Source: Psychrobacter sp. HD31
GTDB lineage: Bacteria; Pseudomonadota; Gammaproteobacteria; Pseudomonadales; Moraxellaceae
Reading direction: 5' to 3'
NCBI RefSeq assembly: GCF_051097895.1
Contig: NZ_CP142525.1
Coordinates: forward strand, 1,200,001 to 1,232,000
Length of the DNA: 32,000 nucleotides
Shown here: in pieces, positions 8,493 to 16,185 of the stretch
How the letters are laid out: each line of letters opens with the position of its first letter
Numbering within the stretch: position 1 is the first letter of the stretch
The notes under the pieces: model-generated
What the model saw: the letters and a program-made list of their open reading frames with translations, nothing else
Told to the model about the DNA's origin: nothing
The model's database searches: none
Translations under genes and position numbers: made by a program

Positions 8493-10007
8493 ATGTCCAC
8501 GCTTAACACGACCCTAAACACCACCGACTTCACTCAAACTCAAACGGCTTACATCAATGGTCAATACCTGCCCATCGACCCATCGCTAGAAACATTTGAC
8601 ACCATTAACCCTGCCACAGGAGAGGTGCTTGCCACCGTTCAACAAACCACCACAGAGCAAATAGACCAAGCGGTACAATCTGCCATAGCAGGGCAAAAAG
8701 TGTGGGCAAGTATGTTGCCTGTGGAACGCACTCGTATCCTACTAAAAGCGGTAGAGCTACTCCGTGGTTACAACGATGAGCTGGCATTACTAGAAAGCAA
8801 AGACACTGGCAAAGGCTTATCAGAAACCCTGTATGTGGATATTGTCACAGGGGCGGATGTGATTGAATATTATGCAGGGCTGGCACCGTCTATCGAAGGT
8901 CGCCAAATCCCATTGCGTGACACCAGTTTTGTTTATACCCGTGAAGAGCCTCTAGGTGTGGTTGCTGGCATTGGGGCATGGAACTATCCAATCCAAATCG
9001 CCATGTGGAAGTCTGCACCAGCACTTGCAGCTGGTAATGCAATGATATTTAAACCATCAGAAGTAACGCCATTGACCGCATTAAAACTTGCCGAAGTGTT
9101 TACTCAAGCAGGCTTGCCAGATGGCGTATTTAATGTGGTGCAAGGTGATTACCGTGTGGGTCAAGCCATCAGCGAGCATCCAGACATTGCCAAAGTATCC
9201 TTTACGGGCAGTGTGCCAACGGGTAAAAAAGTGATGGCAAGCTCGGCAGAATCTTCGCTTAAAGATGTGACCATGGAGCTGGGCGGAAAATCACCCCTGA
9301 TTATTTTTGATGATGCAGACCTTGATACCGCCGCTGACATTGCCATGATGGCAAACTTTTACAGCACAGGTCAGGTTTGTACCAATGGCACAAGGGTATT
9401 TATCCACAAGTCGATGCAAGCAGAGTTTGAGCAAGCCATTACCCAGCGTGTTAATCGTATTAAGGTTGGTAACCCACTAGATGAAACTACCAATATGGGA
9501 CCATTGGTCAGCTTCCCTCATATGGATAAGGTGCTTGATTATATTGAGCAGGGTAAAAACAGTGCTGCCAAACTATTGGCAGGTGGAGAACGCTTACAAG
9601 GCGAGTTAAATGGATTTGACGTAAGTAAAGGGGCGTTTGTTGCGCCAACGGTGTTTAGTGACTGCACCGATGAAATGAGCATCGTGACAGATGAGATTTT
9701 TGGTCCTGTGATGTCTATTTTAACCTATGAAACTGAGGAAGAAGTGATACAGCGTGCCAATGCCACTGAGTACGGCTTAGGCGCTGGCGTGGTCACTAAA
9801 GACTTAAAACGTGCCCACCGTGTGATTGGGCAGATTGAGGCTGGGATTTGCTGGTTAAATACGTGGGGCGAGTCGCCTGCTCAAATGCCTGTGGGTGGCT
9901 ATAAGCATTCTGGTGTGGGGCGTGAAAATGGCTTGCAAACGCTTAAACATTATACGCAGACTAAGTCAGTTCAGGTTGAGTTAGGTGGGTTTGAGTCGGT
10001 TTTTTGA
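8493..10007 (+). CDS. betB: Betaine aldehyde dehydrogenase
   Basis: 504 aa. The ALDH catalytic motifs ELGGKSP and [15 protein letters not shown] are present, and the protein resembles BetB end to end, including an intact C-terminus. Confidence 0.95.
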
Positions 10008-10050
10008 TTTAAAATAAATAGATATTCATATAGATAACTGGAGAGAAATT

Positions 10051-11043
10051 ATGATACAAAATATCGTTTACCATATTTTGGATAAAGAACAAGGTGTAAT
10101 CAATAATGGAAAAATATATTTAAATCCACACAAACTACCCATTGATGATTCAACTAATGAACTTTTCTCACAACTTATGGAAAGGTATAAAGGACGGGCT
10201 GGAAAAGGCTACGGTACCTTTGAAGACGACATAGTTAACTTTCCTGCTTCAAGTATTTTAGATAATTATTATATTAATAAAAACTTCCTTGAAACAACTG
10301 AAAAGCTAATGACTGTGCTCTTAAGCCACAGCAATTCCCAAGTAGGGGCTTCAGGAGGTAAAGTTGTTTTTGTTACATATACTGAAAACAAAGAAAGTTA
10401 TTTTTTAGTAGCTATTTTGGGAGAGAAAGTTGGACTTTTAGCTAGAGACTGGAATCTCACACAAGATGAATTTTTAAATTTTGAAAACCTAAGATTTGCA
10501 GGAAGAGTAAACCTGACAGCGTGGAAACGTGATTCTACTGAACGTTATATCAGCTTTTTAAAAGGTAGTGGCGATGTATCAGATTATTTTAAGCGATTTC
10601 TTGGATGTAATGACGCTTTAATGAACAATCTCGAAACAAAAAAACTTGTTGAGCTAATCGATAGCTTTACACATACACAGAAAATTAGTTTCCAAGAAAA
10701 GGTCGATTTAAGGAATCAAGCAAAAGACTATTTATCTAACCTTGCAGATAACTCAATACAATTTAGTTTACAGACATTTGCAAATCATATTTGGTCAACC
10801 GAACCCCAACAACTTATTGACCATTTCGCAAGTTATGGAGAGGACAACGATTTACTACTTTCTGATGGTTTTGTTCCAGATAAACGAAATTTAAGACGAT
10901 TAACGACATATGAACAAAAAACAAAGAATTGGAAACTTTCATTTGGTTCTGAAGCCATTACATCAGGAGAAATAGATTCTGTTGATGGTCAAATCATTAT
11001 TAAAAATCCAAATGATGAATTAATTTCTGCTTTTAGTAGTTAA
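10051..11043 (+). CDS. Divergent NdpA/YejK-family nucleoid-associated (DNA-binding) protein homolog; first gene of the inserted cassette
   Basis: 330 aa with a GGAG RBS at 10041-10044, six nt upstream of the ATG. The N-terminus IQNIVYHILDK, the block GGKVVFVTYTENKESYFLVAIL, and the central block RVNLTAWKRDSTERYISFLKGSGDVSDYFKRFLGCNDAL match the conserved segments of E. coli YejK as I recall them. The gene is very AT-rich relative to its neighbours. Confidence 0.75.
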   Translation: MIQNIVYHILDKEQGVINNGKIYLNPHKLPIDDSTNELFSQLMERYKGRAGKGYGTFEDDIVNFPASSILDNYYINKNFLETTEKLMTVLLSHSNSQVGASGGKVVFVTYTENKESYFLVAILGEKVGLLARDWNLTQDEFLNFENLRFAGRVNLTAWKRDSTERYISFLKGSGDVSDYFKRFLGCNDALMNNLETKKLVELIDSFTHTQKISFQEKVDLRNQAKDYLSNLADNSIQFSLQTFANHIWSTEPQQLIDHFASYGEDNDLLLSDGFVPDKRNLRRLTTYEQKTKNWKLSFGSEAITSGEIDSVDGQIIIKNPNDELISAFSS

Positions 11044-11056
11044 AACTGAGTAATTT

Positions 11057-12247
11057 ATGAGCATTTCATTTCAAGACCTCGTTACAACTTATCGCAAACT
11101 ATCATCGTGGAATGATGATAAAAGCATTGCCAATTATAAAGTTAATAACACCTCAGATTTGAAGCTAATCAACAATATTCTTAATAGCGATAACTTCGAA
11201 AACTCTCAAATTGAAGTTATTGAAGGAGAACCATCGCTTCAAAAAACAATTAAACTTCGAATCGGACAACCAAACCTTGCTTTAGGTATACTTTATAAAA
11301 CATTTGATGAGTTCTTAATAGGTGATTTCCAAAAAATACATAATTCTCATTATTCCGAAAAACCTTTTTTTATTCAAGATATCGATTATTTCTCTGTTGA
11401 AAATAAAAAAAATGAGGAAATTGAGTCCTATCAAACAATAAAAAAACTATTTTATTGCTTAGAAAAAATGTCATCTTATTCAGATAAACTAAATAAAAAA
11501 CTGATATTCTTTTCAAAGAATGTCATTAATTTAAACTACTCAATAAGCACAACCAATATAAGTGACTTTAAACTGTTATTGAAAAGTTTAACAAAACAGC
11601 AAAAAGAAACTATCGATAAGTTTTGCATTTGGTTTGAAGACCAAAATTCAGCAACTCATATTAGTGAAAAAAAGTCAATATTATCGCAAGTACTATTGAA
11701 CTTTAGAAATGATTCAACAGAAATAAATCTTACAGCAGTAGTCGAAGACATCGAATATATTTTTAAATCTATTAAAGGGCAATATGAACTATATATTGAA
11801 AACTTTAAATATGATAAATATGTTCAAAAGTTAGAAGAGAAAAGCGATAAATTTATAGAACATGTTAATACCAGTATTTCAAAAGTTATTACTCAAATAT
11901 TAGGACTTCCTATTGCTGTAGCTATATCAGCAGTATTAAAAGGGACTCAACAAAATAATAATTGGATTATTTATTGCTTAGTAATTATCTACGCATTAAT
12001 TTGTTTCTTTGCTTTAAATGCCCAAAAGGCAACACTGGACCACATTAAAAAATCCGTTAAAGAGTATTCAGACAAATTACCTCAATACTTTAATGAGTCA
12101 TGGAATAAGGAAGAAAAACACATCAATAACCTTATTCAAAAACAAATGCTTTTGTATTGGGTTATGTGCACTACAGTAGGTTTAGCAATATTATATGCTG
12201 GATGGAACATAATACATAATCTATTTTGCATCAACCCCTCTATATAA
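11057..12247 (+). CDS. Uncharacterised membrane-anchored protein with a soluble helical N-terminal region and three predicted C-terminal TM helices; second gene of the cassette
   Basis: 396 aa, starting 13 nt after gene 1. Hydrophobic segments lie at about aa 277-295 ([19 protein letters not shown]), 303-322 ([20 protein letters not shown]) and 364-389 ([26 protein letters not shown]). I recognise no catalytic motif. The protein is rich in N, K and I. Confidence 0.75.
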
Positions 12248-12285
12248 CTAAAAAATTAAAAACTATCATCAACAAAGGCAACACT

Positions 12286-13977
12286 ATGAACAAAAACAAT
12301 TACAACTACATCATCATTGGCGCAGGCTCAGCAGGTAGCACCCTCGCCTGCCGCCTAACCGAAGACCCAAACACCAGCGTACTACTACTTGAAGCTGGCA
12401 GACCAGACCACCGCCTAGACTTCCGCACGCAAATGCCAGCCGCCTTAGCCATGCCACTACAAGGCACCACCTACAACTGGGGCTACAAAACCGACCCAGA
12501 ACCACACATGAACAACCGTGTTATGGATTGTGGACGAGGCAAAGGCTTAGGCGGAAGCTCACTGATTAATGGTATGTGCTATATCCGTGGTAATGCGTTG
12601 GACTTTGACGACTGGGCAAAAATAGAGGGGCTAGAAGACTGGACATATCTTGATTGCCTACCCTACTTTAAAAAAGCCGAAAACCGAGATGCAGGCGAAA
12701 ACGACTACCACGGCGTGGGCGGTCCTATCGACATGACCACCTCAAAGCCCAATGTTAATCCATTGTTTGAGGCGATGATAGAAGCAGGCGTGCAAGCTGG
12801 CTACCCACGCACCGAAGACCTAAACGGCTATCAACAAGAGGGCTTTGGTCCTATGGACAGATTTGTTACGCCAAATGGTCGCCGTGCTTCTACCTCTCGT
12901 GGCTATCTGGATACTGCCAAAGAGCGAGATAATTTGACCATCTTAACGGGTGCGTTGACCGATGTCATCCTGTTTGAAGGCAAACGTGCCGTGGGTGTAA
13001 AAATCAGCCATGATGGTCAAGACAAAATCTTCCATGCTGACAATGAAGTCATCGTATCATCAGGGGCAATTGCCTCGCCTCAACTGTTACAACGCTCAGG
13101 CGTGGGTCCTAAACAGTGGCTTGATGAGTTAGATATCCCTGTGGTGTTAGACGCTCAAGGCGTAGGTAATAACTTGCAAGACCACCTAGAGCTATATATG
13201 CAGTACGAGTGCTTAAAACCTGTGTCCATTGCCGATGCCAATAAATGGTGGAACAAACCACCAATCGGTGCGGAGTGGTTATTTAATGGTACAGGGCTTG
13301 GGGCATCCAATCAGTTTGAAGGTGGTGGATTTATCCGAACGCATGATGAGTTCACCCATCCAAATATCCAGTATCACTTCCTACCATTGGCGGTGCGTTA
13401 TGACGGCACCAATGCAAGCGATGCACACAGTTTTCAAGCACATGTTGGCTCATTACGTTCCCCAAGCCGTGGACGAGTGAAGATTAAATCTCGTGATCCA
13501 AATGCACACCCAAGTATTTTGTTTAACTATATGTCGCATGAGCAAGATTGGCGAGAGTTCCGAGAAGCGATGCGAGTCACGCGTGAAATCATTCACCAGC
13601 CAGCCCTAGATCCATACCGTGGTAAGGCACTCAGCCCAACCGAGGACTTAGTAACCGATGCTCAGCTAGATGCCTATGTGCGTGAGCATGGCGAGACCGC
13701 CTACCACCCATCCTGTACTTGTGCCATGGGCGAGCATGAAGGGGCTGTGGTCAATGGCGAAGGTTTAGTACACGGTCTGGAAGGCTTGCGTGTGGTTGAT
13801 GCGTCTATCATGCCTAACATCATTAGTGGTAACTTAAATGCCACCACCATCATGCTTGCCGAAAAAATTGCTGATAAGATTAAAGGCGAAACATTGCCTA
13901 AATCAACCGCAGATTATTATGTGGCAAATGGGGCACCACTTAGAGGTGAGCCGATGCGTACCTATACGCCAAATTAA
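12286..13977 (+). CDS. betA: Choline dehydrogenase (GMC oxidoreductase)
   Basis: The FAD-binding N-terminus [33 protein letters not shown] is present. I place the start at ATG 12286 with AAAGG about 10 nt upstream. The ORF-track start at 12226 would overlap the cassette gene and adds a non-homologous extension. Confidence 0.95.
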
Positions 13978-14032
13978 TTTTTTAACTTTTAACAAAGTCT
14001 TGTCTTGTTTTTAACAGATGAGGCTTTCACTT

Positions 14033-14124
14033 TGCTATAGACAATATACCCAAGTATAACCACTTAAGTTATGCGTTATGTTCTTTATTTAAAGTAGGCT
14101 TATTTTCTATAGCAATGTCTATAC
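14033..14124. promoter_or_regulatory. Inverted-repeat elements upstream of betT; candidate operator sites
   Basis: tgctataga (14033-14041) is the exact reverse complement of tctatagca (14106-14114). The second site continues as the imperfect palindrome tatagcaatgtctata. Confidence 0.25.
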
Positions 14125-14175
14125 GCTAGGCATATCAATGCTTTGCGTGAATTTAATGATATAAAGGACATTGTA

Positions 14176-16185
14176 ATGAATCATATGACCTCGTCAGACT
14201 CTGGCGAACCCCTTAGTCTTAACAAAGTGGTGTTTATCGCCTCGGCGTTATTATCCATCTTGTTAATTATTTGGACAATTGCCTTCCCCACTTATAGTGA
14301 AACCATGCTTAGTAATGCCATGACCTGGGTTTCTAACAACTTTGGTTGGTACTATATGTTGGTAGTGGCAGCTTACAGTATTTTTGCTTTATTTGTGGGG
14401 TTTTCTAGCTATGGCGATATCAAGCTAGGGCAAGACCACGAGCAAGCCCAATTTCCATTTTTAGCATGGGCAGCCATGCTGTTTTCGGCGGGTATTGGTA
14501 TCGACTTGCTGTTTTTTGGGGCATCAGAACCCTTAATGCATTATTTAACCCCGCAACCAGGTATCGATGCTGCCAGTAGCGAAGCAATGCGACAAGCCAT
14601 ACCGCAAGCCTTTTTACATTGGGGGCTTCATGGCTGGGGGATTTATGCCCTTATTGGTATGGCGCTGGCTTATTTTGCTTATCGCAAAAATATGCCATTG
14701 GCGTTGCGTTCTGCCCTAACCCCAATTTTTGGTGAAAAACGAATCAATGGCTGGCTTGGGCATAGTGTGGATACCTTTGGTATTGTGTGTACACTTATGG
14801 GTATTGCCACCAGCTTGGGTATTGGCGTATTGCAAGCCAATGCAGGCTTAAACCATGTATTTGGTATCGAGTCTAGCAAAACCGTACAAGCCATTATTAT
14901 TGTCGCTGTAGTGGCTGCTGCTGCCATCTCTGCCATGACAGGGGTAGAAAAAGGCGTGCGCCGCTTATCTGAGTTTAATATGCTCACCGCTACCCTACTG
15001 TTAATTGCCATTTTGGTGATGGGCAATACGGTTCATTTATTAAATACTTTTACTCAAAATATTGGCGATTACTTCCAAACCGTGGTAACCAAAACCTTTG
15101 ATGTGTATGCCTACCAAGGAGACGCTGGTGCAGAGTGGAAGTCTTGGTGGACGGTATTCTTTTGGGCTTGGTGGGTTGCTTGGGCACCATTTGTTGGCTT
15201 GTTTATTGCACGTATTAGCCGTGGTCGTACCTTGCGTGAGTTTGTTTTTGGCGTAATGTTTATCCCGCTTGGCTTTATTTTTGCATGGTTCTCAATCTTT
15301 GGTAACTCAGCAATTGATTTGGTTGCAGGTGGTGCAACTGAGCTGGGCGAAACCGCTGTTAATAATGCCGCCATGGGTATGTTTGCTTTATTTGAGCACT
15401 ATCCATTTAGTGATGTGTTGTCATTAGCTGGTGTTATCATTGGCTTGGTGTTTTTTGTGACTTCGGCAGACTCTGGTGCATTGGTACTGGCAAACTTAAG
15501 CTCAAGAGGCTTAAATAACGAAACCGATGCCCCAATTTGGCTGCGTCTGTTTTGGGCAGCTGCCACAGGTATGATTACCTTAGGCTTATTGTTTGCTGGG
15601 GGCTTTAGCTCACTTCAATCTGTTTCGGTTATTTCTGGCTTGCCGTTTTCTATCATTTTAGTGCTTTATATGATTGCAATGTGGAAGTCACTTAAGGAAG
15701 AAGGCAGCAAACGTAAGGCAAATATTGTTGGTACAGTTGGTACTGCACAAGTGCTAAATGGCGGTAAAAACTGGAAGAGCCGTTTGCAACGTATTGTTAA
15801 CTTCCCTGATAAAAAGAAAGTCCGTAGCTTTATGGATAAAGTGGTACTAACCGCCATGCAAGAGGTTGAAGCAGAAATGAACGAGCGAGGCTTAACAACC
15901 AAGCTAACCGAGTATATGGAAGATGATGGCGAAGGGTTACACCTAAAAGTAGGCCATGGTGACGAAACCGACTTTAGCTATGGCGTTTATATTATTAAAG
16001 CTGACCGCCCTAACTTTAGTTTTAGTAATGCCAGCAAGCATACTGAGCATTATTACCGTGCTGAGGTATTTTTAACCGAAGGCTCGCAAGAGTATGACCT
16101 AGTCGGCTACTCAAAAGAGCAAGTACTGATGGATATTTTAAACCAGTACGAACGCCATTTACAGTACCTGCATTTAGAGCGTTAA
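14176..16185 (+). CDS. betT: BCCT-family choline/glycine betaine transporter
   Basis: A polytopic membrane protein with a BCCT signature region (WTVFFWAWWVAWAPFVGLFIARISRGRTLREF) and a long cytoplasmic C-terminal tail. I prefer ATG 14176, which has an AAAGGA RBS, over the TTG at 14143. Confidence 0.9.
   Translation: MNHMTSSDSGEPLSLNKVVFIASALLSILLIIWTIAFPTYSETMLSNAMTWVSNNFGWYYMLVVAAYSIFALFVGFSSYGDIKLGQDHEQAQFPFLAWAAMLFSAGIGIDLLFFGASEPLMHYLTPQPGIDAASSEAMRQAIPQAFLHWGLHGWGIYALIGMALAYFAYRKNMPLALRSALTPIFGEKRINGWLGHSVDTFGIVCTLMGIATSLGIGVLQANAGLNHVFGIESSKTVQAIIIVAVVAAAAISAMTGVEKGVRRLSEFNMLTATLLLIAILVMGNTVHLLNTFTQNIGDYFQTVVTKTFDVYAYQGDAGAEWKSWWTVFFWAWWVAWAPFVGLFIARISRGRTLREFVFGVMFIPLGFIFAWFSIFGNSAIDLVAGGATELGETAVNNAAMGMFALFEHYPFSDVLSLAGVIIGLVFFVTSADSGALVLANLSSRGLNNETDAPIWLRLFWAAATGMITLGLLFAGGFSSLQSVSVISGLPFSIILVLYMIAMWKSLKEEGSKRKANIVGTVGTAQVLNGGKNWKSRLQRIVNFPDKKKVRSFMDKVVLTAMQEVEAEMNERGLTTKLTEYMEDDGEGLHLKVGHGDETDFSYGVYIIKADRPNFSFSNASKHTEHYYRAEVFLTEGSQEYDLVGYSKEQVLMDILNQYERHLQYLHLER

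What the first reader, a model, noticed from the sequence alone, without database searches (positions are those of the whole stretch)
10008..12285. AT-rich two-gene cassette inserted between betB and betA: candidate undescribed DNA-binding plus membrane system
betB and betA are normally adjacent cistrons of one operon. Here they are about 2.3 kb apart, and both look full length: the betB C-terminus ...GGFESVF and the betA FAD-binding N-terminus are intact. The gap holds two tightly linked genes, 13 nt apart, on the same strand.

Composition shifts sharply. My hand counts on 60-nt blocks give about 20-28% G+C inside the cassette (10381-10440 and 11401-11460) and about 53-58% in betB and betA (8941-9000 and 12301-12360). 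The encoded proteins are rich in N, K and I. This indicates horizontally acquired DNA.

I found no integrase, transposase, terminal inverted repeats or flanking direct repeats. I also found no convincing independent promoter, so the pair is probably read through from the betB promoter.

Pairing a nucleoid-associated-type DNA binder with a multi-TM protein resembles the logic of sensor/effector anti-phage modules. One example is Kiwa, which combines a membrane component with a DNA-binding component; abortive-infection systems with membrane-disrupting effectors are another. I do not recognise this pair as any named system.
Basis: partly seen in the sequence, partly recalled or inferred. Interest (0 to 1): 0.85.

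Follow-up and report, generated by a model that had tools for sequence, protein, structure and literature searches.

The report
Nucleoid-protein plus membrane-effector phage-defence pair

Summary
betB (8493-10007) and betA (12286-13977) are intact and 2,278 nt apart. The gap holds two same-strand genes 13 nt apart, with 29.6% G+C against a window mean of 40%. Ten other Psychrobacter species have betB and betA 55-210 nt apart and lack both genes.

Gene 1 (330 aa) is a YejK/NA37 nucleoid-associated protein, but not the housekeeping YejK ortholog. Gene 2 (396 aa) has a soluble N-terminal part and three C-terminal hydrophobic helices.

Both genes are significant but sub-threshold matches to the NCBIfam models for the two proteins of DS-1. 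DS-1 is an E. coli defence system validated in the DefensePredictor study (Science 2026). The architecture also matches type II PANGU (bioRxiv 2026): a nucleoid protein plus a transmembrane effector that causes abortive infection.

In 17 of 17 homologous loci examined, an NA37 gene lies immediately upstream of the gene 2 homolog, and the two proteins co-diverge (r = 0.81). These loci lie in prophages, a Tn7-like element, plasmids and defence islands.

The pair is therefore a new, divergent member of a known kind. What remains unusual is its context. It is a scarless insertion with no detectable promoter inside a core osmoprotectant operon, far from any mobile element or defence island.

The parts
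8493..10007 (+). betB (betaine-aldehyde dehydrogenase), the intact upstream flank. It is the presumed source of transcription into the cassette.
   Evidence: Pfam Aldedh E 1e-172 over residues 32-493. It is 79-83% identical to BetB of other Psychrobacter species.
10008..10050 (+). 43-nt leader between the betB stop codon and the gene 1 start. It contains a GGAGAG ribosome-binding site and no recognisable promoter.
   Evidence: Sequence read. The promoter scan found nothing here. Homologous pairs elsewhere have 200-525 nt upstream spacers.
10051..11043 (+). Gene 1: a YejK/NA37-family nucleoid-associated protein (330 aa). It is the PagA/DS-1A-like candidate sensor.
   Evidence: Pfam NA37 E 3e-60 over residues 6-324. 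NF053868 DS1_1_antiphage E 5e-25. The YejK equivalog model gives 145 bits against a cutoff of 341. phrog_3767 E 1e-70. PDB 9be2 YejK E 4e-16. It is 43% identical to WP_077474557.1, a NAP that DefensePredictor scored as defensive.
11057..12247 (+). Gene 2: the partner/effector protein (396 aa). It has a soluble N-terminal part (aa 1-273) and a C-terminal membrane part.
   Evidence: NF053869 DS1_2_antiphage E 1e-16. phrog_5023 E 1e-36. hhalign of the family profile against DS-1B gives probability 98.8%, E 1e-16 over 289 columns. hmmsearch gives DS-1B E 4e-32. The AF2 model has pLDDT 94.9.
11876..12202 (+). Part of gene 2 that encodes three hydrophobic helices (aa 274-296, 300-327, 364-382). This is the predicted membrane-inserted effector module.
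   Evidence: Kyte-Doolittle segments. The AF2 model has long helices at 232-294, 303-340 and 343-391. The pre-TM helix and the TM1-TM2 hairpin are the best-conserved parts of the family, at 2.0 bits against 1.4 bits for the N-terminal domain.
12248..12285 (+). 38-nt spacer between the gene 2 stop codon and the betA start. No terminator is present.
   Evidence: Sequence read. The terminator scan found nothing here.
12286..13977 (+). betA (choline dehydrogenase), the intact downstream flank.
   Evidence: Pfam GMC_oxred_N and GMC_oxred_C. It is 84-86% identical to BetA of other Psychrobacter species over residues 6-560.

Best explanation
The cassette is a horizontally acquired two-gene anti-phage system of the NAP-plus-membrane-effector kind. 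It is a distant relative of E. coli DS-1 and has the same architecture as type II PANGU.

Shown here: gene 1 is a YejK-like nucleoid-associated protein. Gene 2 is a homolog of the DS-1 second protein, with a soluble N-terminal part and three C-terminal hydrophobic helices. The two genes always travel together, in this order, and co-diverge. The pair is typical cargo of prophages, transposons, plasmids and defence islands.

Inferred from the published PANGU model, not shown for this pair: in uninfected cells the NAP is held on the nucleoid. When a phage degrades host DNA the NAP is released. It then binds the N-terminal domain of the membrane protein and activates it. The activated protein damages the membrane and aborts the infection at the cost of the cell.

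Inferred from the anatomy: the native promoter did not come with the cassette. Only 43 nt separate it from betB, so in this genome it is most likely transcribed by read-through from the bet promoter, and betA is now transcribed through it.
For: Family assignment. Gene 1 matches NA37 (E 3e-60). Both proteins match the DS-1 NCBIfam models (E 5e-25 and 1e-16). Of 122 gene 2 family members, 115 match DS1_2. hhalign against DS-1B gives 98.8% probability, and hmmsearch gives E 4e-32.

Experimental support in relatives. DS-1 (NAP WP_000355468.1 followed by WP_000150292.1) is listed as defensive and replicated in PMC13092281 Tables S6 and S8. Type II PANGU (NAP Pag2A plus TM protein Pag2B) protects E. 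coli from T4 by abortive infection. Both genes are required. The isolated N-terminal domain of Pag2B binds Pag2A with KD 19 nM, and Pag2A leaves the nucleoid on infection.

Synteny. In 17 of 17 loci, NA37 lies immediately upstream on the same strand. Pairwise identities of the two proteins co-vary, with r = 0.81 and Mantel p = 2e-4.

Context of homologs. The closest homolog sits beside a type I HsdR gene. Others sit next to Gabija GajA/GajB and in a Tn7-like element with a methyltransferase and PDC-M26A. Others are in E. coli lambdoid prophages between the holin gene and Q, in a Mu-like Psychrobacter prophage, and in phage phi2LM21.

Foreign origin. The cassette is 29.6% G+C against 40%, and it is absent from the bet loci of 10 other Psychrobacter species.

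Intactness. Both ORFs are full length, and all family-conserved residues are present in gene 2.
Against: Similarity to the validated DS-1 proteins is low. It is 21-25% identity over partial alignments, and scores are far below the NCBIfam equivalog cutoffs (88 against 330 and 61 against 315). Functional equivalence is therefore extrapolated.

The N-terminal part of gene 2 is only mildly acidic (net charge -4, pI 5.7). That gives little support to a DNA-mimic surface.

No own promoter was found, so the pair may be poorly expressed here.

The window contains no other defence gene or mobile element.

The Foldseek search of the PDB gave no significant match that would reveal the effector chemistry.
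Confidence: 0.7

Rival explanations
1. The pair is a decaying remnant of prophage or island cargo. It was once a defence or superinfection-exclusion module, landed without its promoter, and has no current function in HD31.
For: The cassette has no promoter, only a 43-nt leader. Homologs elsewhere have 200-525 nt of upstream sequence. No other element sequences lie around it. DNA similarity to the closest relative (67%) stops at the ORF ends.
Against: Both ORFs are intact and full length, and all family-conserved residues are retained. A good ribosome-binding site precedes gene 1. The position inside an operon guarantees transcription whenever betB and betA are co-transcribed, and no terminator lies on either side.
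Confidence: 0.12
2. The pair has a housekeeping role in chromosome or membrane organisation. In this reading an extra nucleoid protein is tethered to the membrane by gene 2, or regulates the bet genes, and the pair has nothing to do with phages.
For: Gene 1 belongs to the same Pfam family as the abundant E. coli nucleoid protein YejK. The pair sits among core genes.
Against: Gene 1 fails the YejK equivalog model, with 145 bits against a cutoff of 341. The pair is absent from 10 other Psychrobacter species at this locus. Its composition is strongly atypical. Homologs are carried on prophages, plasmids and transposons, and only 16 of 5,426 complete E. coli genomes carry the prophage version.
Confidence: 0.05
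3. The pair is a classical toxin-antitoxin or addiction module. Gene 2 would be a membrane toxin that gene 1 constantly neutralises, stabilising the DNA that carries it.
For: The genes form a tightly linked, co-diverging two-gene unit on mobile DNA. Gene 2 encodes a small membrane protein with long helices that faintly recall alpha-pore-forming toxins (Foldseek E 0.07, not significant).
Against: [quoted passage not shown] There were no matches to known TA families in Pfam, NCBIfam or PADLOC.
Confidence: 0.08

Closest known systems
DS-1 (DefensePredictor, DeWeirdt et al., Science 2026; NCBIfam NF053868 DS1_1_antiphage and NF053869 DS1_2_antiphage)
   Same: It is a two-gene operon with an NA37/YejK-like protein first and a roughly 400-aa partner second. 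Both window proteins hit the two DS-1 models (E 5e-25 and 1e-16). The partner family aligns to DS-1B over 289 columns at 98.8% probability.
   Different: Identity is only 21-25% and scores are far below the equivalog cutoffs. DS-1A carries an N-terminal zinc-ribbon extension (CxxC...CxxC, residues 1-40) that gene 1 lacks. The hydrophobic segments of DS-1B are weaker than those of gene 2. The host is Psychrobacter, not E. coli.
Type II PANGU (Pag2A NAP plus Pag2B transmembrane effector; Li et al., bioRxiv 10.64898/2026.04.06.716658)
   Same: It is a bicistronic operon with a spacer under 40 nt. It encodes a YejK-like NAP plus a protein with a soluble N-terminal domain and a C-terminal TM domain. 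Relatives are linked to RM and Gabija loci, as the preprint describes.
   Different: Sequence homology to Pag2B could not be tested because no sequence is held. The N-terminal domain here is only weakly acidic. The pair here lies outside any defence island and lacks its own promoter.
E. coli lambdoid-prophage NAP plus 392-aa pair (L099-L101)
   Same: It belongs to the same gene 2 family. The partner is 25% identical over its full length (E 4e-22), the NAP is 36% identical, and the order and overlap are the same.
   Different: It is carried as a moron between the lysis genes and antiterminator Q, with its own 290-nt upstream region. It is annotated only as a hypothetical protein and a nucleoid-associated protein. 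It has not been tested, unless it is the PANGU-Ecu system.
Kiwa (KwaA membrane protein plus KwaB DUF4868)
   Same: The general logic is shared: a membrane component paired with a DNA-binding component.
   Different: There is no sequence relationship. No Kiwa model in PADLOC matched either protein. Gene 1 is NA37, not DUF4868.
Housekeeping YejK/NdpA
   Same: It has the same Pfam family and fold. PDB 9be2 matches at E 4e-16.
   Different: Gene 1 fails the equivalog threshold. It is operon-linked to an effector, foreign in composition and accessory in distribution.

Membership tests
DS-1 (NCBIfam equivalogs) | The first protein reaches the NF053868 DS1_1_antiphage cutoff (330 bits). | tested here: not met
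   88.3 bits, E 4.8e-25. It is a homolog but not an equivalog.
DS-1 (NCBIfam equivalogs) | The second protein reaches the NF053869 DS1_2_antiphage cutoff (315 bits). | tested here: not met
   60.7 bits, E 1.3e-16. hhalign gives 98.8% probability and hmmsearch gives E 4e-32. It is the same superfamily but a different subfamily.
DS-1 (NCBIfam equivalogs) | Gene order is NAP then partner, on the same strand and tightly linked. | tested here: met
   The spacer is 13 nt. DS-1 is at 220602-221777 and 221780-222994 in its record.
DS-1 (NCBIfam equivalogs) | The pair protects against phage when expressed. | not testable with these tools
   This needs plaque assays.
Type II PANGU | It encodes a YejK-like (NA37) nucleoid-associated protein. 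| tested here: met
   Pfam NA37 E 3e-60. PDB YejK E 4e-16.
Type II PANGU | It is a bicistronic operon with adjacent genes less than 40 bp apart. | tested here: met
   The spacer is 13 nt and both genes are on the same strand.
Type II PANGU | The effector has a soluble N-terminal domain and a C-terminal transmembrane domain. | tested here: met
   Hydrophobic segments lie at residues 274-296, 300-327 and 364-382. The AF2 model has pLDDT 94.9.
Type II PANGU | The N-terminal domain is an acidic DNA-mimicking (DMK) surface that binds the NAP. | tested here: inconclusive
   Residues 1-275 have net charge -4 and pI 5.7. No surface electrostatics or binding test was possible.
Type II PANGU | The effector shows sequence homology to Pag2B. 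| not testable with these tools
   No sequence or accession is given in the preprint text, and no supplements are held.
Type II PANGU | The operon is genetically linked to known defence genes. | tested here: inconclusive
   It is not linked in this window. Homologs are linked: HsdR in L004, Gabija in L088 and MTase plus PDC-M26A in L002.
Type II PANGU | The NAP leaves the nucleoid on phage-induced DNA degradation, and infection is aborted. | not testable with these tools
   This needs microscopy and infection assays.
Kiwa | KwaA and KwaB (DUF4868) homologs are present. | tested here: not met
   No PADLOC hit apart from PycTM at E 0.32. Pfam shows NA37 only.
Housekeeping YejK | The protein reaches the NF001557 equivalog cutoff (341 bits). 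| tested here: not met
   145.4 bits.
Transposon, integron cassette or integrative island | Terminal inverted repeats, target duplication, attC, integrase/transposase or a tRNA site are present. | tested here: not met
   Only chance-size repeats were found. The window has no such ORFs and no tRNA. The 38-nt 3' spacer is too short for an attC site.

The most novel reading that the evidence does not exclude
This divergent clade of the family has three strong TM helices, lacks the zinc ribbon, and is only 15-25% identical to the tested systems. It may work differently from the tested E. coli systems. Its promoterless capture inside the bet operon may also put immunity under choline or osmotic-stress control. 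That would be a defence system wired into a metabolic operon rather than a defence island.
Probability: 0.15. Interest if true: 0.6.

Novelty: new member of a known kind. Interest (0 to 1): 0.35.

Why it matters
The finding extends the NAP-sensor plus membrane-effector defence family to Psychrobacter (Moraxellaceae). The profile search found about 800 clusters at 50% identity in the partner-protein family, and the contexts examined include Mu-like and lambdoid prophages, a Tn7-like element and plasmids.

It also shows that such systems can sit as scarless insertions, with no detectable promoter, inside core metabolic operons. Island-based discovery and 2023-era tools such as PADLOC v2 miss them there.

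How the membrane effector is activated, and what it does, is still unknown even for the published type II PANGU. A compact, well-modelled variant (pLDDT 95) with a clearly delimited conserved pre-TM helix and TM hairpin could help that work. The finding does not open a new category.

Tried and rejected
- PADLOC v2 gave no hit on either protein. The database predates DS-1 and PANGU.
- Pfam gave only sub-threshold noise on gene 2: 8xMP, Caveolin and DUF5001.
- The Foldseek search of the PDB with the gene 2 model gave nothing significant. The best match was the AhlB/SmhB alpha-pore-forming toxins at E 0.07 and TM-score 0.17-0.21, so I do not claim a pore-forming-toxin fold.
- The profile search of PDB sequences gave only spurious TM-helix matches to VAMP2.
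- The word-index profile search with 122 sequences returned only 10 proteins because of the candidate cap.
- The search for related loci with the 122-sequence alignment failed because no stretch was conserved enough. It was rerun with the 8-sequence alignment.
- Exact-sequence look-ups of BetB, gene 1 and gene 2 found no contigs on record. No same-species genome could therefore be compared.
- blastn of the cassette against phage genomes gave no match.
- I looked for borders of the transferred DNA by aligning to the closest relative. Similarity (67%) covers only the coding region.
- Alignment of the betB-betA spacers of relatives showed they are too diverged to define the junctions.
- I rejected an integron-cassette, transposon or tRNA-island origin.
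- I rejected Kiwa membership.
- I looked up phage specificity for DS-1 in the supplementary tables but could not extract it.
Full report
**1. The observation**

The window carries betB at 8493-10007 and betA at 12286-13977 on the + strand. Two further + strand ORFs lie between them. Gene 1 is at 10051-11043 (330 aa) and gene 2 is at 11057-12247 (396 aa).

The spacers are 43 nt, 13 nt and 38 nt. BetB and BetA have complete domain sets. They align end to end with orthologs.

The 2,278-nt gap is 29.6% G+C. All other 2,278-nt windows average 40.5% +/- 2.2%, with a minimum of 35.2%. GC3 is 0.22 and 0.24 for the two genes, against 0.44 and 0.47 for betB and betA.

N+K+I makes up 22% and 31% of the two proteins, against 14-15% of BetB and BetA.

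The rest of the window is core housekeeping: hisG, murA, rsmI, betT, coaBC and radC. It has no tRNA gene. Nothing suggests an integrase or transposase. Repeats at the junctions are of chance size. A sigma-70 consensus scan finds no site in the 43-nt leader, and no terminator flanks the pair.

**2. It is an insertion**

The exact gene 2 protein is on record from Psychrobacter sp. HD31. A scan of one genome per species returned 80 bet loci.

All ten other Psychrobacter species have betA starting 79-208 nt after the end of the BetB match, and none has either cassette gene. Their BetB proteins are 79-83% identical to the window's. Of the 80 loci, 78 have gaps under 500 nt.

There are two caveats. 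The nearest species is still only 83% identical in BetB. No same-species genome could be found. The age of the insertion within the HD31 lineage is therefore unknown.

**3. What the genes are**

Gene 1 is a full-length NA37/YejK-family protein (Pfam E 3e-60). It matches the solved YejK structure 9be2 at E 4e-16. It fails the NCBIfam YejK equivalog model, with 145 bits against a cutoff of 341. It also matches NF053868, named "nucleoid-associated anti-phage protein" (DS1_1), at E 5e-25.

Gene 2 has no Pfam family. It matches NF053869, named "anti-phage protein" (DS1_2), at E 1e-16. It also matches phrog_5023 at E 1e-36.

A profile search of 1.84 billion cluster representatives found 819 related clusters at E <= 1e-3 and 289 at E <= 1e-10. 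Most are 380-430 aa. Of 122 members scanned, 115 match DS1_2.

I recovered the sequences of the two DS-1 proteins from Table S8 of the DefensePredictor paper.
- The family profile aligns to DS-1B over 289 columns, with hhalign probability 98.8% and E 1e-16.
- hmmsearch of the family profile against DS-1B gives E 4e-32.
- Pairwise identity is only 21% for gene 2 against DS-1B and 25% for gene 1 against DS-1A.

The pair is therefore homologous to DS-1 at superfamily level but is a different subfamily.

**4. Anatomy of gene 2**

AlphaFold2 with the 122-sequence alignment gives a confident model, with pLDDT 94.9 and pTM 0.82.
- Residues 1-165 form an alpha/beta domain.
- Residues 168-230 form helices.
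- Three very long helices follow, at 232-294, 303-340 and 343-391.

Hydropathy places three membrane-type segments at 274-296, 300-327 and 364-382. The loop between the second and third segment is lysine-rich.

The best-conserved part of the family is the helix leading into the membrane plus the first TM hairpin. It scores 2.0 bits per column, against 1.4 for the N-terminal domain. Near-invariant residues are H201, F250, Q280, L282, P285, Q323 and L327.

The N-terminal part is only mildly acidic, with net charge -4 and pI 5.7. The Foldseek search of the PDB gives nothing significant.

**5. The two genes are one unit**

An NA37 gene lies immediately upstream on the same strand in every locus where I could see the neighbourhood of a gene 2 homolog. 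It usually overlaps the homolog or lies a few nucleotides away.
- Five metagenome contexts.
- Sinorhizobium phage phi2LM21.
- Two plasmids.
- Eight IMG/VR viral contigs.
- Three loci reached from the NA37 side.

Across 17 pairs, the pairwise identities of the NAPs and of their partners correlate with r = 0.81 and Mantel p = 2e-4.

**6. Where the unit lives**

- The closest relative (66% and 51% identical for the two proteins) sits just downstream of a type I restriction R subunit.
- A Methylobacter plasmid copy abuts a Gabija locus, with GajA and GajB at E about 1e-230.
- Another copy is cargo of a Tn7-like element, beside a cytosine methyltransferase and a PADLOC candidate gene.
- Psychrobacter frigidicola carries a copy next to integrase fragments.
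- An uncultured Psychrobacter carries one in the early region of a Mu-like prophage.
- E. coli carries one as an opposite-strand moron between the holin gene and antiterminator Q of a lambdoid prophage. It is present in 16 of 5,426 complete genomes.

The pair is more AT-rich than its flanks in all six loci where I measured it, for example 35.6% against 51.7% in E. coli. This is the distribution expected of a mobile defence or superinfection-exclusion module.

**7. What is already known**

DefensePredictor (PMC13092281) cloned DS-1 from E. coli and lists it as defensive and replicated. It names the YejK nucleoid-associated domain as newly validated in defence.

The supplementary tables of that paper also score a 323-aa NAP as strongly defensive. 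That protein is 43% identical to gene 1 over its full length.

A 2026 preprint (10.64898/2026.04.06.716658) defines PANGU systems as bicistronic operons of a YejK-like NAP plus an effector. Type II pairs the NAP Pag2A with a transmembrane protein, Pag2B.
- Both genes are needed for protection against T4, and protection is by abortive infection.
- Neither gene alone is toxic.
- The isolated N-terminal "DNA-mimicking" domain of Pag2B binds Pag2A with KD 19 nM.
- Pag2A-GFP leaves the nucleoid on T4 infection.
- How Pag2B is activated, and what it does, is explicitly left open.

I could not obtain the Pag2B sequence. Membership of type II PANGU therefore rests on architecture, while membership of the DS-1 superfamily rests on tested homology.

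**8. Most likely mechanism**

Shown here: the domain identities, the linkage, the co-divergence, the mobile and defence contexts, and the foreign origin.

Inferred from the PANGU work:
- The NAP is sequestered on intact chromosomal DNA.
- Phage-induced genome degradation frees it.
- It binds the N-terminal domain of gene 2.
- The membrane module is switched on and kills or arrests the infected cell.

Inferred from the local anatomy: the pair arrived without its own promoter, so it is read through from betB, and betA is now transcribed through it. I put 0.7 on the defence assignment and roughly 0.5 on the specific PANGU-type mechanism.

**9. Rivals**

- A functionless remnant (0.12). This is possible because of the missing promoter, but both ORFs and all conserved residues are intact.
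- A housekeeping nucleoid or membrane role (0.05). This is contradicted by the accessory distribution and by failure of the YejK equivalog test.
- A classical toxin-antitoxin pair (0.08). This is at odds with the reported non-toxicity of PANGU single genes, although it has not been tested for this clade.

**10. Verdict**

However, the system is no longer undescribed. It is a new, divergent member of the DS-1 and type II PANGU kind. Kiwa is not related.

The remaining points of interest are the odd location and the still-unknown effector mechanism. The location is a scarless insertion with no detectable promoter, inside a core operon and outside any island.

Noticed in passing
window 8493-16185: The bet genes (betB, betA, betT) are richer in G+C than the other genes of the window. 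They have 44-49% G+C and GC3 of 0.42-0.47, against 36-45% and mostly 0.27-0.39. Their best matches outside the genus are Neisseria and Spirabiliibacterium at 75-77% identity. The bet cluster itself may be laterally shared.
   Followed up: partly
L016 7763-9082 (-), Neisseria montereyensis; L062 7459-8498, N. musculi: Other genomes also have something inserted between betB and betA. One has a 439-aa ORF on the opposite strand, whose translated sequence looks to me like an FMN-dependent hydroxyacid dehydrogenase with a Tat-like signal; it was not run against any family library. The other has about 1 kb with a 234-aa ORF of unknown function. The spacer seems to tolerate insertions.
   Followed up: partly
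L007, L008, L011, L014, L015, L022 just after the betB stop: The betB-betA spacers of other Psychrobacter species are 55-190 nt long and unrelated to each other. Several contain hairpin-like inverted repeats. None resembles the window junctions.
   Followed up: no
L099-L101 7001-9203: E. coli lambdoid prophages carry a homologous NAP (344 aa) plus 392-aa pair as an opposite-strand moron between the holin gene and antiterminator Q. It is present in 16 of 5,426 complete genomes and is annotated only as a hypothetical protein and a nucleoid-associated protein. It may or may not be the PANGU-Ecu system.
   Followed up: partly
L102 7001-9210 and L103: A Mu-like prophage of an uncultured Psychrobacter carries the pair between gam/HU and gemA/mor. 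The proteins are 46% and 40% identical to the window proteins. Phages of this kind are a plausible vehicle for spread within the genus.
   Followed up: partly
L001 1-6551: A four-gene cluster lies directly upstream of a homologous pair. It encodes a DUF3584 SMC-like protein of more than 1,221 aa, then proteins of 207 aa and 442 aa, then a DUF7281 protein. It has no PADLOC hit and could be an unlisted SMC-type defence system.
   Followed up: partly
window 12226-12285: The ORF list extends betA upstream to a TTG at 12226, overlapping the end of gene 2. Alignment with orthologs supports the ATG at 12286 as the real start.
   Followed up: yes
DS-1A residues 1-40 (from PMC13092281 Table S8): The validated E. 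coli DS-1 NAP has an N-terminal zinc-ribbon-like extension (CxxC...CxxC). Gene 1 of the window lacks it. Its role is not discussed in the text I read.
   Followed up: no
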